Shown here in pieces: positions 22,961 to 62,366 of a DNA stretch of 64,000 nucleotides. Source of the DNA: Eledone cirrhosa (lineage: Eukaryota); assembly GCA_964016885.1 (NCBI GenBank), contig OZ024753.1, positions 25,978,001-26,042,000 of the forward strand, in the 5' to 3' direction. The first letter of the stretch is position 1, and each line of letters opens with the position of its first letter. The notes below the pieces were generated by a model. The model saw only the letters and a list, made by a program, of their open reading frames with translations, ran no database searches and had not been told where the DNA came from. Both the position numbers and the translations under genes were made by a program.

Positions 22961-23579
22961 ATCCACTTCTATCAAGCGTGAACCTAATATAACTGTGTAC
23001 AATTGCCTCCTGTGTTTTGTTCGTTCATTTTCAACTATATATATACATATATACATACATACACACACACAGATATACACAAGCACGCACGCACGCACGC
23101 ACGCAAGCGCGCGCCCATATATGTGTGAGTGTATCCATATAAAATATGTGATTATAGTGTAGTGCTTCACTATTGCTTTTGAATCTGATAGTTTGCTTTA
23201 ACATTGTATGTATTTTGATATAGTGTTATTTGATTCTTAAAACCTTGTGAGGTTAAACGTCTTTTACATTGTATATGTTCTATATAAGTTTTCCTGAACA
23301 TATACAGTATGTAACATGTCTGATGTAGTTAATTTCCAGTTGTTCTGTAAATCAATCTGATATTTTAGCCGTATTGAAACGTGCGTAGAAAGTAAGACAA
23401 AATAATAATTTCAGGTCGTTGACTTGTTTAGAATTTTGAATATATATATATATATGTAGGAGATGAGTTTTATTGAACCACAATAAAGCAATGCAAATAT
23501 CGGATATGTAGCACTCAACAGTTTATAGGACTGAAGTATAAATAATATAAAATCAAAAGGTAGTTAAAAGAGTTCCATG

Positions 23580-23650
23580 TATTTTATTATGCGCATTTCA
23601 AAAACAAATATCATCATGGGGTGATATTTGCGTTCTCATCAGATAAAATA
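23580..23650 (-). ncRNA. type I hammerhead ribozyme motif
   Basis: Minus strand: TATTTTAT-CTGATGA-stem II-GAAA-TGCGCA-TA-ATAAAATA (8-bp helix I, palindromic helix III, AUA site). Confidence 0.8.
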
Positions 23651-23769
23651 GGGAAACATATGAAGCTTAAAAAAAAAACACTTGCGAGCAGTGAAGTGTC
23701 AAATCAACATATGTTTATTTGACACTTCACTGTTCGCAAGTGTTTTTTAAGCTTCATATCATGTCTCCC

Positions 23770-23840
23770 TATTTTATCTGATGAGAACGCAAATATCATC
23801 CCATGATGATATTTGTTTTTGAAATGCGCATAATAAAATA
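23770..23840 (+). ncRNA. type I hammerhead ribozyme motif
   Basis: TATTTTAT-CTGATGA-GAACGCAAATATCATC..GATGATATTTGTTTTT-GAAA-TGCGCA-TA-ATAAAATA; predicted cleavage after 23832. Confidence 0.82.
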
Positions 23841-24231
23841 CATGGAACTCTTTTAACCATCTTATGATTTTATATATATATATATATATATATATCCTCA
23901 TGGTATTTGTCGTATGCTTCAAAATCTGCCAGTGATATCGACCTTGTCGGTAAAAGCAGGTGTTCCACATAAGAACTTCTTACTGCGTTCTTCCGTGTCT
24001 AATCTTGCATTTTTTAATGTGTACATATCCGGTAGTGTACATTTCCGGTGTTTATATTTTAACCCAAAACGTTTCCTTCAATCTAGTCCAGGAGATGCTT
24101 GCTATGAGCTGTTATCAGAGTTAGTTATTTCCCTTTCCTATTGCTCCAGTATACTCAACTGAACATGAGTAGGGGTACCAGCAGTAATGGCTGGGAATTT
24201 AACCCTGCAATGGACTGGCGTCCTGTCCAAG

Positions 24232-24512
24232 TGGGGGCTCTTGTACCCTCTGTTGCTTGCGTCCTGACCAAGGGGGGAGTCTTGTACCCTCTGTTGCTTG
24301 CGTCTTGTCCAGGGGGGAGTCTTGTACCCTCTGTTGCTTGCGCCCTGTCCAGTGGGGAGTCTTGTACCCTCTGTTCCTTTCTCACGCTGTCCAGGGGGAG
24401 TCTTGTACCATCTGTTGCTTGCGTCTTGCCCAGTGGGGCGTCTTGTACCCAATGTTGCTTGCGTCTTGTCCAGGGGGAAGTTTTGTAACCTCTGTCACTT
24501 GCGTCTTGTCCA
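24232..24512. repeat. ~40-bp tandem repeat x7 inside a SINE-like element
   Basis: GGGGGAGTCTTGTACCCTCTGTTGCTTGCGTCTTGTCCA units following AACCCTGCAATGGACTGGCGTCCTGTCCA. Confidence 0.85.
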
Positions 24513-25019
24513 AGCTTAATGCCACGGAATAAGCGACGACCTGATGAACTTCCAGGCGAGACACTTTAGCTGATGTAGTGCTGTGAGATTGAACCATCGG
24601 CCAGTTAATAACATTTAACACTGGAGTTGAGGCGTCTTACATATTACTAAAGATATAAAATCCAACTTAATTCAGTGTATCTGGAAAACTTCAAAATTCT
24701 TCTTGATGCTATAATAATAATGATTTCTTTATTATGATGATATGTCAAGAGAGGGCGTTACACCATATGTTTTTTTATTGATTCAATATATTTTAAAATC
24801 TAATGGTTTATCAATGTGAAGTATTCACAACGATAACAACAAAAGGGTATACGACAAATTATACATCTTTCATTTGCAAACTTGAGTATCTTCCAAAACG
24901 ACATACACACACACAAACTATCTATATGTGTATGTATGTGTGAGTCTTTATATATGTATGTGTATGTTTATATAAGTATATACGTATGTCTTTATATGTA
25001 TATATGTATCTTTGGATTT

Positions 25020-58000: not shown

Positions 58001-61000
58001 TGTCTGTATATATATTATATATATGTATATATAAGTATATTATATATATGTATATATAATATATATTATATATATGTATATATATATGTATGTATATTTA
58101 TATATATATTATATATATGTATATTTATATGTATATATATATGTATGTATATTTATATATATATTATATATATGTATATTTATATATATATTATATATAT
58201 GTATATTTATATATATATTATATATATGTATATTTATATATATATTATATATATGTATATATATATATATTATATATATGTATATATATATATATTATAT
58301 ATATGTATATATGTATAAATATATATATTATATATATGTATATGTATATATATATATATTATATATATGTATATATACATATTATATATATATATATTAT
58401 ATATGTGTATATATATATATGTATATTTATATATATATTATATATATGTATATATATATATATATTATATATATGTATATATGTATGTATATATGTATAT
58501 ATATATGTATATATATATATATATATATATGTATATATATATGTATATATATGTATATATATATATATGTATATATATATATATGTATATATATATGTAT
58601 ATATATGTATATATATATATATGTATATATATATATATATATATATACGTATATATATATTATATATATGTATATATATATATATATAGATATATATATA
58701 TATATGTATATATATATATATATATATGTATATATATATATGTATATATATATATATATATATGTATATATATATATATATATATGTATATTTATATATA
58801 TATATATATATGTATATATATATATATATATATATATATGTATATTTATATATATATTATATATATGTATATTTATATATATATTATATATATGTATATT
58901 TATATATATATTATATATATGTATATTTATATATATATTATATATATGTATATTTATATATATATTATATATATGTATATTTATATATATATTATATATA
59001 TGTATATGTATATTTATATATATATTATATATATGTATATATATATTTATATATATGTATATATATATATATTTATATATATATTATATATATGTATATA
59101 TAATATATATTATATATATGTATATATATATATATATTATATATATGTATATATATATATATTTTATATATATGTATATATATATGTATGTATATTTATA
59201 TATATATTATATATATGTATATATATATATTTTATATATATGTTATATTTATATATATATATGTATATATATATTATATATATGTATATATATTATTATA
59301 TATATGTATATGTATGTATATATATATTATATATATATTATGTATATATATATTATGTATATATATATATATATATATATATTATGTATATATATATATG
59401 TATATATATATATTATATATATGTATATATATATATTATATATATGTATATATATATTATACATATGTATATATGTATATAGGTATATATATATATATGT
59501 ATATATATATATGTATATATATATTATATATATGTATATATATATATGTATATATATATATGTATATATATATATGTATATGTATATATATATATGTATA
59601 TGTATATATATATATGTATATATGTATATATATATATGTATATGTATATGTATATGTATATATGTATATATATATATGTATATATATATATGTATATATG
59701 TATATGTATATATATATGTATATATATATATGTATATATATATTTATATATATGTATATGTATATATATATATGTATATGTATATATATATATGTATATA
59801 TATATTATATATATGTATATATATATATGTATATATATATATTATATATATGTATATATATATATTATATATATAGTATATATATGTATATATATATTAT
59901 ATATATGTATATATATATATATTATATATATGTATATATATATATATTATATATATATGTATATATATATATGTATATATGTATATATATATATATATAT
60001 ATGTATATATATATATATACATATTATATATATGTATATATATATATGTACATATGTATATATATATATGTATTATATATATATGTACATATGTATATAT
60101 ATATATGTATATATATATATGTATATATATATATGTACATATGTATATATATATATGTATATATATATATGTATATATATATATGTATATATGTATATAT
60201 ATATATGTATATATATATATATATTATATATATGTATATATATATATGTATATATATATATATGTATATATATATATATATATATTATATATATATATAT
60301 ATGTATATATATATATATATATTATATATATGTATATATGTATATATATATATGTATATATATATATATGTATATATATATATATATATATTATATATAT
60401 GTATATATATATATATATATATTATATATATGTATATATATATATATATATTATATATATGTATATATATATATATATTATATATATGTATATATATGTA
60501 TATATATATGTATGTATGTATATATATATATATGTATGTATATATGTATATATGTATGTATATATGTATATATGTATATATATATATATTATATATATGT
60601 ATATATGTATATATATATATATTATATATATGTATATATATGTATGTATATATGTTATATATATGTCTGTATATATATTATATATATGTATATATAAGTA
60701 TATTATATATATGTATATATAATATATATTATATATATGTATATATATATGTATGTATATTTATATATATATTATATATATGTATATTTATATGTATATA
60801 TATATGTATGTATATTTATATATATATTATATATATGTATATTTATATATATATTATATATATGTATATTTATATATATATTATATATATGTATATTTAT
60901 ATATATATTATATATATGTATATTTATATATATATTATATATATGTATATTTATATATATATTATATATATGTATATATATATATATATTATATATATGT

Positions 61001-61796
61001 ATATATATATATATTATATATATGTATATATGTATATATATATATATTATATATATGTATATGTATATATATATATATTATATATATGTATATATACATA
61101 TTATATATATATATTATATATGTGTATATATATATATGTATATTTATATATATATTATATATATGTATATATATATGTATATTTATATATATATTATATA
61201 TATGTATATTTATATATATATTATATATATGTATATATATATATATATTATATATATGTATATATGTATGTATATATGTATATATATATATATATATATG
61301 TATATATATATGTATATATATGTATATATATATATATGTATATATATATATATATATATATATATATGTATATTTATATATATATTATATATATGTATAT
61401 ATATATGTATATTTATATATATATTATATATATGTATATTATATATATATTATATATATGTATATTTATATATATATTATATATATGTATATATATATAT
61501 ATATATATGTATAATATATATATATATATATGTATATATATATATATATATGTATATATATATATATATATATATATGTATATTTATATATATTATATAT
61601 ATCGTATATTTATATATATATTATATATGTATATTTATATATATATTATATATATGTATATTTATATATATATTATATATATGTATATTTATATATATAT
61701 TATATATATGTATATTTATATATATATTATATATATGTATATTTATATATATATGTATATATATATGTATATTATATATATGTATATTTATATATA
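55027..61796. repeat. 6.8-kb (TA)n-derived array
   Basis: Directly visible. Confidence 0.97.
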
Positions 61797-61954
61797 TATT
61801 GTTATACTTTGGGAGGGTCATGTTGCCAATAAGAAACACACGCACCAGTTGCTTTCACTTCAATTTAATTTAATATATATTTATAAATTTACAAATTTAT
61901 AAATTTCTGGTTGGTTGGTTGGTTCCACAACCAGATAGTTGTTTATATATATAT

Positions 61955-61999
61955 AGTCATAGTTCTTTCGTCACACACTCTGTGACCTCTTCAGTGACT
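61955..61999 (-). ncRNA. minimal type I hammerhead motif
   Basis: Minus strand: AGTCA-CTGAAGA-G-GTCACA..TGTGAC-GAAA-GAAC-TA-TGACT. Confidence 0.78.
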
Positions 62000-62106
62000 G
62001 GGGATTTCTTTCTTCGTTTCTGTGCCTTTCCTTTCTTCTATCCTACGCCATTTTGTGGCGTAGGATAGAAGAAAGGAAAGGCACAGAAACGAAGAAAGAA
62101 ATCCCC

Positions 62107-62151
62107 AGTCACTGAAGAGGTCACAGAGTGTGTGACGAAAGAACTATGACT
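62107..62151 (+). ncRNA. minimal type I hammerhead motif
   Basis: AGTCA-CTGAAGA-G-GTCACAGAGTGTGTGAC-GAAA-GAAC-TA-TGACT; CUA site after 62146. Confidence 0.78.
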
Positions 62152-62366
62152 ATATATATATAAACAACTATCTGGTTGTGGAACCAACCAACCAACCAGA
62201 AATTTATAAATTTGTAAATTTATAAATATATATTAAATTAAATTGAAGTGAAAGCAACTGGTGCGTGTGTTTCTTATTGGCAACATGACCCTCCCAAAGT
62301 ATAACAATATCGGTTTCAACACACGATTTCAGATAAAGAATCTTGCTAAACAAATTCAGAAACGAA

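What the first reader, a model, noticed from the sequence alone, without database searches (positions are those of the whole stretch)
23546..62310. Hammerhead hotspot: ~20 motifs from about 7 families in 39 kb, closely tied to (TA)n arrays
Seen: complete or near-complete type I HHRs at 23.6, 23.8, 28.05, 28.5, 33.8, 34.0, 38.3, 42.15, 43.7, 44.2, 46.35, 46.44, 47.9, 48.0, 49.8, 53.3, 53.9, 54.5, 62.0 and 62.1 kb, plus decayed ones. Helix III differs by family but is mostly self-complementary (ATGCGCAT, ACCCTAGGGT, ACACGTGT, ACCGGT, ACCGATCGGT, ACTACGTAGT, ATATATAT). I saw none in the TA-poor first 22 kb. Inference: a group of Penelope-like or retrozyme elements that target (TA)n and may seed or extend it, so much of the apparently unique DNA between TA tracts is ribozyme-element debris.
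Basis: partly seen in the sequence, partly recalled or inferred. Interest (0 to 1): 0.8.

Follow-up and report, generated by a model that had tools for sequence, protein, structure and literature searches.

The report
Penelope-element hammerheads piled into TA repeats
The hammerhead ribozyme motifs are real, and they sit in the ends of about a dozen short insertions that stop at TA repeats and are most likely leftovers of Penelope-like jumping genes; this pattern is already described, including from octopus, and the youngest insertion is a 595-base tandem unit predicted to release a small circular RNA.

Summary
Observation confirmed. All 20 listed sites carry both hammerhead core boxes; 12 pass a strict type I descriptor against 0.15 per shuffle, none in the first 22 kb. 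They come from 12 insertions of about 7 lineages, not 20 events. Most are head-to-head foldbacks with one tailed and one short arm (11 of 11 two-armed cases); 13 of 13 homology-defined short ends run into (TA)n, against 0 of 20 SINE ends. [quoted passage not shown] Targeting is supported; seeding is not: interrupted TA arrays keep one polarity across insertions. Such debris covers 34–50% of non-simple DNA beyond 22 kb. The 595-bp tandem unit at 52.9–54.8 kb fits a non-LTR retrozyme, abundant in one public run with 11 contigs ending at one site in (AT)n. No RT–endonuclease partner was found; cleavage is untested. The scan noted PLE-type units in TA repeats in another genome, but no look-alike of this unit.

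The parts
23456..23870 (.). Foldback A1: head-to-head arms (91% alike), hammerheads at 23642 (-) and 23778 (+), helix III ATGCGCAT; left arm with ~94-nt tail, right arm short; TA on both sides
27882..28165 (-). B1: decayed relative of family A, hammerhead core at 28077, ends in (TA)n
28198..29164 (.). G: about 690-nt non-coding unit on the - strand with strict hammerhead at 28571 (helix III ACCCTAGGGT), plus an inverted arm that reads through the unit junction (tandem or circular template); TA on both sides
33627..34061 (.). Foldback A2 (arms 98% alike, 82% to A1), hammerheads at 33815 (-) and 33958 (+); same centre and same long and short ends as A1
37085..37140 (.). D3: 56-bp mini insertion in the TA satellite: short D-family end on the - strand joined to the last ~21 nt of the tail on the + strand
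38135..38390 (-). B2: hammerhead core at 38311, helix III ATATATAT, ends at TA satellite
41806..42229 (.). Old foldback K (arms 69% alike), hammerhead at 42138 (+) with CCGACGA core and helix III ACACGTGT; left arm long and decayed
43437..44405 (.). D: 5'-longer + copy and inverted, tailed - copy (97% alike); hammerheads at 43739 (-) and 44162 (+) with an extra base after A9; ATG frame from 43518 (-) runs into the tail
44546..44721 (.). D2: small foldback of the D family, truncated before the hammerhead; one tailed, one short arm
46205..46526 (.). Foldback E1 (arms 80% alike), decayed U3:A8 hammerheads at 46374 (-) and 46429 (+)
47829..48182 (.). Foldback E2 (arms 99% alike), U3:A8 hammerheads at 47932 (-) and 48013 (+), helix III ACCGGT; centre differs from E1
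49372..49932 (.). F: + copy with strict hammerhead at 49778 (helix III ACCGATCGGT) and an inverted tailed arm that starts inside helix III
52821..54826 (+). T: short inverted 5' arm (52821-52926) followed by 3+ head-to-tail monomers of 592-595 bp (98% alike), each with a U3:A8 hammerhead (cores 53237, 53832, 54424; predicted cut after 53316, 53911, 54503; helix III ACTACGTAGT); runs into an assembly gap. Retrozyme-like
61800..62366 (.). Foldback H (arms 99% alike), hammerheads at 61994 (-) and 62112 (+); same short end as D; ATG frame from 62285 runs through the 55-nt tail
22700..23035 (+).
40184..41170 (.). Family C (also 27199-27333): inverted copies with only the first core box close to the 3' end; one long and one short end
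49933..64000 (.). Interrupted TA satellite (G and TT interruptions on the + strand) that hosts T and H; a second array at 34062-38130 hosts D3

Best explanation
The motifs are type I hammerheads in the 3' ends of truncated and non-coding elements that were most likely inserted into existing (TA)n arrays by the reverse transcriptase-endonuclease of Penelope-like elements, probably acting in trans for the non-coding units. Shown: the cores and helices, fixed 3' ends that run into TA, head-to-head arms with one long and one short end, nesting of several families in the same TA tracts. Inferred from published PLE biochemistry: the enzyme cuts both strands of AT-rich DNA and starts cDNA at two fixed internal sites of the RNA, and the two 5'-truncated cDNAs are joined head to head, which puts two hammerheads on opposite strands. 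In such foldbacks the hammerheads are likely passengers, since a read-through RNA would pair one arm with the other. In the tandem unit T, neighbouring hammerheads are predicted to pair through the palindromic helix III and to cut out 595-nt monomers that could be circularised, as in animal retrozymes. Each insertion splits a TA tract and leaves TA on both sides, so later insertions pile up in the same zone.
For: 12 strict motifs against 0.15 per shuffle. 11 of 11 two-armed insertions (A1, A2, D, D2, D3, E1, E2, F, G, H, K) have unequal outer ends, and the short end falls at the same internal site in independent copies. 13 of 13 ends defined by divergence from a longer homologue are followed by a TA run; 29 of all 35 ends examined; SINE ends 0 of 20; background 3.8%. 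In public run X1, 11 contigs of the T family end at 53396 and go on as (AT)n. D and H share an ATG frame through the end and tail with 7 of 10 substitutions at third codon positions in 22 codons, and 7 unnamed short proteins from public assemblies carry the same peptide; a pLTR plus tail that holds the first 12-22 codons is described for Penelope (PMC3846280, passages). T monomers fold as circles at z -7.0 and -5.3 against 25 shuffles; helix III palindromes form duplexes of -8 to -18 kcal/mol but hardly fold alone. Papers: U3-A8 core, extra base after A9, palindromic helix III and pairs on opposite strands 100-700 bp apart (PMC4209133); inverted 5'-truncated copy, one-sided tail and (TA)n bias (PMC8557442); two internal start sites, both strands cut, AT-rich targets (PMC11167929); Hydra-1_Obim, an Octopus PLE with hammerhead and (TA)n preference (PMC8557442 supplement).
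Against: No RT or GIY-YIG frame is in the window (read by eye for frames of 100 aa or more), and no long protein carrying the D/H peptide was found; the 17 long hits that were checked (5) are unrelated repeat proteins. Six short probes from these families did not match the PLE consensus sequences of PMC8557442 apart from one hit inside an unrelated ORF. Tails here are 50-170 nt, longer than the 30-40 nt usually reported. A1 and A2 share the same centre, which also fits copying of a whole foldback. Family A has G-U or A-U at 10.1-11.1, and the minimum-energy folds of T, F and G do not show the full three-way junction as monomers. Cleavage and expression are untested. One 64-kb window, no genome.
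Confidence: 0.85

Rival explanations
1. The foldbacks are miniature inverted-repeat DNA transposons of the TA-targeting Tc1/mariner type that happen to carry hammerheads.
For: Long inverted arms, TA on both sides, no coding capacity; A1 and A2 have the same centre and the same two ends.
Against: The two outer ends differ in 11 of 11 cases, so there is no shared terminal inverted repeat; E1 and E2, and D, D2, D3 and H, have the same ends but different centres and lengths; single-arm and tandem forms occur.
Confidence: 0.05
2. The elements create or lengthen the TA arrays, by adding TA during priming or by seeding from their TA-rich ends.
For: The short arm stops at an internal TA-rich site and continues as TA; kilobase arrays adjoin the youngest insertions (A2, F, T, H) and short tracts the older ones (A1, E1, K).
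Against: The interrupted arrays have the same polarity on both sides of A2, E2, T and H, while seeding from two opposed arms would give mirror images (the right flank of T lies beyond a 200-N gap). One search found seeding papers only for snakes and lizards, listing only.
Confidence: 0.12
3. The near-perfect foldbacks are assembly or library artefacts (chimeric fold-back reads in TA-rich DNA).
For: H, E2, F and A2 arms are 98-99% alike, in a region of long TA arrays with a gap.
Against: Older pairs have diverged arms (91, 89, 80, 69%); centres are asymmetric; short ends recur at the same base in independent loci.
Confidence: 0.03
4. The hammerheads are chance matches in AT-rich sequence.
For: At 3 allowed defects shuffles give about 1.2 hits per zone; Rfam models find none.
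Against: 12 motifs with at most 1 defect against 0 in 30 shuffles; different sequences in seven lineages keep the three helices, with the C3-G8 to U3-A8 double change in two lineages.
Confidence: 0.01

Closest known systems
Hammerheads in pseudo-LTRs of endonuclease-bearing Penelope-like elements (Cervera and de la Pena 2014, PMC4209133)
   Same: Type I topology, palindromic helix III suited to dimers, extra base after A9 (D, H), U3-A8 core variant (E, T), pairs on opposite strands a few hundred bases apart, many divergent families per genome.
   Different: Several motifs here have a long helix II (36-59 nt) and 8-10-nt helix III palindromes; no ORF is attached in this window.
Hydra-clade PLEs, among them Hydra-1_Obim of Octopus bimaculoides, and cephalopod Naiads (Craig et al. 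2021, PMC8557442 and its supplement)
   Same: (TA)n insertion preference, hammerhead about 100-200 nt from the 3' end (Hydra), inverted 5'-truncated copies, one-sided tail; half-core motifs in Naiads resemble family C.
   Different: None of the window's families matched these consensus sequences by six short probes or by eye at the hammerheads and Naiad ends shown; clade not assigned.
Poseidon PAc of Anolis (Frangieh et al. 2024, PMC11167929) and Penelope of Adineta vaga (Arkhipova et al. 2013, PMC3846280)
   Same: Two fixed 3' ends that define a tail, AT-rich targets, head-to-head inverted pLTRs with palindromic junctions, ORF start inside the terminal repeat (D, H).
   Different: Tails are longer here; each two-armed insertion here pairs one long with one short end, whereas PAc in vitro showed no difference in start site between strands.
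Animal non-LTR retrozymes (Cervera and de la Pena 2020, PMC7229834; Li et al. 2026, bioRxiv 10.64898/2026.07.22.740005)
   Same: T (and probably G): non-coding tandem unit, one type I hammerhead per monomer, under 45% GC, strongly folded predicted circle; length inside the 51-972 bp range of the preprint.
   Different: 595 bp against 220-390 bp for the expressed examples; U3:A8 core and long helix II; carries a PLE-type inverted 5' arm and fixed ends in (TA)n; circular RNA not shown.

Membership tests
Type I hammerhead ribozyme | Core boxes CUGANGA (or U3:A8 / U4C variants), GAAA and UH in order | tested here: met
   20 of 20 reader sites show both boxes
Type I hammerhead ribozyme | Three helices, helix I open-ended | tested here: met
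   12 of 20 strict, 8 with mismatched stems
Type I hammerhead ribozyme | Self-cleavage 3' of H17 | not testable with these tools
   no RNA data; bench assay needed
Penelope-like element (EN+) | ORF with telomerase-like RT and GIY-YIG endonuclease, or a shown link to one | tested here: inconclusive
   absent from the window, as expected for 3' fragments; searches with the only candidate peptide found no long protein; no genome to search
Penelope-like element (EN+) | Hammerhead in the terminal repeat near the 3' end | tested here: met
   predicted cut 38-160 nt from the short end, 132-220 nt from the long end in A1, A2, E2, F, H
Penelope-like element (EN+) | Inverted 5'-truncated copy head to head, partial tandems | tested here: met
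Penelope-like element (EN+) | Optional tail on one end | tested here: met
   11 of 11 two-armed insertions
Penelope-like element (EN+) | Insertion bias for microsatellites or AT-rich DNA | tested here: met
   13 of 13 homology-defined ends, SINE control 0 of 20; 11 contigs in run X1
Penelope-like element (EN+) | ORF start inside the terminal repeat (Penelope/Poseidon) | tested here: inconclusive
   D and H: 7 of 10 changes at third positions, 5 silent and 4 replacement codons; small sample, no full protein; no such frame seen in families A, B, G, T
Penelope-like element (EN+) | Target-site duplication | not testable with these tools
   hidden in (TA)n
Non-LTR retrozyme (unit T) | Two or more tandem units, each with a complete type I hammerhead | tested here: met
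   3 monomers 98% alike with strict motifs; a 620-nt contig closes on itself in run X4
Non-LTR retrozyme (unit T) | No protein-coding capacity | tested here: met
   longest stop-to-stop frames inside the array 102-104 aa; these frames were not searched against proteins
Non-LTR retrozyme (unit T) | Accumulates as circular and linear monomer RNA | not testable with these tools
   only a folding prediction
MITE / Tc1-mariner DNA transposon | Identical inverted termini and fixed length within a family | tested here: not met
   unequal ends in 11 of 11; variable centres in the D and E sets

The most novel reading that the evidence does not exclude
Unit T is an undescribed, very abundant cephalopod retrozyme with a U3:A8 core that Rfam and canonical descriptors miss, expressed as a 595-nt circle and moved by a PLE enzyme; and the strict pairing of one long with one short arm in every two-armed insertion records a coupled mechanism in which a PLE dimer primes the two target strands from two different sites of the RNA. 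Such foldbacks would be a large hidden source of near-perfect RNA hairpins in this genome and may be filed as MITEs by automatic annotation.
Probability: 0.4. Interest if true: 0.5.

Novelty: new member of a known kind. Interest (0 to 1): 0.3.

Why it matters
It adds about seven hammerhead lineages and one young retrozyme-like unit to a known class, and shows that a third to a half of the seemingly unique DNA in a TA-rich zone can be PLE ends that Rfam does not see. The many short insertions with fixed ends are a handy natural data set for the open question of how PLEs integrate (why one arm has the tail), and T gives a ready substrate to test whether a U3:A8 hammerhead makes circles in vivo. 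Nothing here overturns current views.

Tried and rejected
Rfam: no hammerhead hit at gathering score, none for F or T at E up to 10; the E-value run on the whole window was swamped by microRNA models on hairpins. Expression: no RNA holder listed for T. Horizontal spread: T is listed for 17 organism labels in 16 studies, but of the 4 runs laid only X1 holds it in bulk (1383 contigs); X4 has one contig at depth 8, X8 seven, and 12.8 million raw reads of X22 none, so trace carry-over is as likely and I draw nothing from the list. Summed depth in X1 (about 8e4 to 6e5) is not a copy number; whether X1 is the window's source is not known. Covariation in T: none of the 17 listed letter differences falls in the core or helices, but about one would be expected, so this is not evidence. 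Autonomous partner: protein searches with the D/H peptide, a locus scan and a T motif scan of metagenomes found none. Seeding of TA arrays, MITE origin, artefact and chance were considered and ranked low (see rivals). Nearest-distance enrichment alone was weak and the all-ends count is partly circular, because some ends were set where TA begins; I rely on the 13 ends fixed by a longer homologue. Part of the output was cut (E arms, parts of D and F), so frames there were not read.
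Full report
Setting. The window is AT-rich animal DNA with LINE fragments, a SINE family, minisatellites in the first 16 kb and kilobase TA arrays beyond 24 kb. That it is octopus is my recall of the SINE's look and comes from no call. No genome is held.

Observation. A strict type I descriptor finds 12 hammerheads, all beyond 22 kb, against 0.15 per shuffle in 60 local dinucleotide shuffles. A defect-counting scan gives 12 motifs with at most one defect and none in 30 shuffles. 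All seven listed palindromes are there; D and H have AGAACT instead. Families E and T use UUGANAA, the double change of the C3-G8 pair; K has CCGACGA; D and H have an extra base after A9. Rfam sees none of them.

Anatomy. Self-comparison and alignments group the 20 motifs into 12 insertions of about seven lineages (A/B, G, K, D/H, E, F, T). Most are head-to-head foldbacks with arms 69-99% alike. In 11 of 11 two-armed insertions one arm carries a tail of about 50-170 nt and the other stops at an internal TA-rich site; independent copies stop at the same base (five short ends of the D/H family; A1 and A2; E1 and E2). Even the 56-bp D3 has a short end and the tip of a tail. Centres vary within D and E but are shared by A1 and A2. 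G and T are non-coding units of about 690 and 595 bp read through their own junctions. Families I, C and J also end at TA and lie in the tracts next to the others.

Link to TA. 13 of 13 ends fixed by divergence from a longer homologue are followed by a TA run, 29 of all 35 ends examined, 0 of 20 SINE ends, and 3.8% of random non-simple positions. SINE copies lie in both zones (6 of 10 in the first 22 kb), the hammerhead insertions only beyond 22 kb (P about 0.002 by share of non-simple DNA). Nearest-distance enrichment inside the TA zone is modest (P=0.025). Outside evidence: in run X1, 11 contigs of the T family leave the unit at 53396, 80 nt after the predicted cut, and go on as (AT)n. The interrupted arrays keep one polarity across A2, E2, T and H, so they predate the insertions. 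Hammerhead families cover 7,638 of 22,334 non-simple bases beyond 22 kb (34%), 45% with I, C and J, 50% with five further foldbacks.

Coding trace. D and H share an ATG frame that starts 8 codons before the short end and runs through the tail; 7 of 10 substitutions in 22 codons are at third positions. A profile of three copies found 24 proteins among 1.84 billion: 7 short unnamed ones from public assemblies that carry the peptide and 17 long ones, of which the 5 checked are unrelated repeat proteins. No long RT protein was reached. The link to an autonomous element is therefore by anatomy only.

Mechanism. I infer target-primed reverse transcription by a PLE enzyme at (TA)n, with both strands cut and two fixed internal start sites, then head-to-head joining of two truncated cDNAs. 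Paired hammerheads on opposite strands are a by-product. In T the monomers lie in tandem, the helix III palindrome pairs between copies at -12.9 kcal/mol and does not fold alone, and the monomer folds as a circle at z -7.0 and -5.3, which fits a retrozyme that cuts as a dimer. None of this is shown at RNA level, and Frangieh et al. found hammerhead cleavage not needed for insertion in vitro.

Literature seen. PMC4209133: parts 1-2 of 4 of the text. PMC11167929: parts 1-2 of 4. PMC8557442: passages and supplement rows and parts 2, 24, 52 of 59, which list Hydra-1_Obim with a hammerhead and (TA)n preference, cephalopod Naiads with (TA)n and half cores, and (TA)n for nearly all Hydra families. 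PMC3846280, PMC7229834, PMC13282606, PMC8969392: passages. bioRxiv 10.64898/2026.07.22.740005: part 1 of 5 and passages. Arkhipova 2006: not read, known through Craig et al. Searches gave no paper on these particular families or on an octopus retrozyme; the O. vulgaris repeat paper has no word 'hammerhead' in its main text. The supplement of PMC7229834 could not be read, and those of PMC4209133 and the preprint were not seen; they, and Repbase or Dfam, may hold these families.

Verdict. A real and well-read observation of a known phenomenon. Filed as working like Penelope-like elements and, for T, like a non-LTR retrozyme; protein-level membership is open. New members of a known kind; interest 0.3.

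Noticed in passing
window 42614-43144, 48853-49271, 44785-44920, 46044-46191, 26962-27014, 32781-32879: Further foldbacks without a hammerhead (arms 80-94% alike), with asymmetric centres like the PLE-type ones; origin not assigned.
   Followed up: partly
window 32692-32879, 41661-41787, 44424-44509: Family J: three copies with the same - strand end at (TA)n, nested between other insertions; one frame stays open in all three.
   Followed up: partly
window 27199-27333, 40184-41170: Family C has only the first hammerhead box about 10 nt before its short end, like the 'half-core' noted for Naiads; no second box downstream.
   Followed up: partly
window 43229-43265 and about 45220-45260: Two more decayed hammerhead-like sites with ACCGGT and ACGATCGT palindromes after GAA.
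   Followed up: no
window 51640-51900: The TA satellite flips polarity locally (C and AA instead of G and TT interruptions), suggesting an internal inversion.
   Followed up: no
window 24949-25814: TA array punctuated at intervals by a palindromic CATG, giving a higher-order repeat unlike the other arrays.
   Followed up: no
window 5529-6163, 11090-13179, 13496-16022, 24218-24512: GC-richer minisatellites of 15, 41, 42 and 40 bp; the 42-bp array sits inside a LINE fragment.
   Followed up: no
window 16150-16680, 19100-21100, 29800-31150: Broken LINE (AP endonuclease and RT-like) fragments judged from translations; the last is rearranged with pieces on both strands.
   Followed up: no
run X4, 620-nt contig: A single contig covers the T unit end to start with no flanks at depth 8 in another organism label; tandem DNA, circle or carry-over cannot be told apart.
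   Followed up: partly
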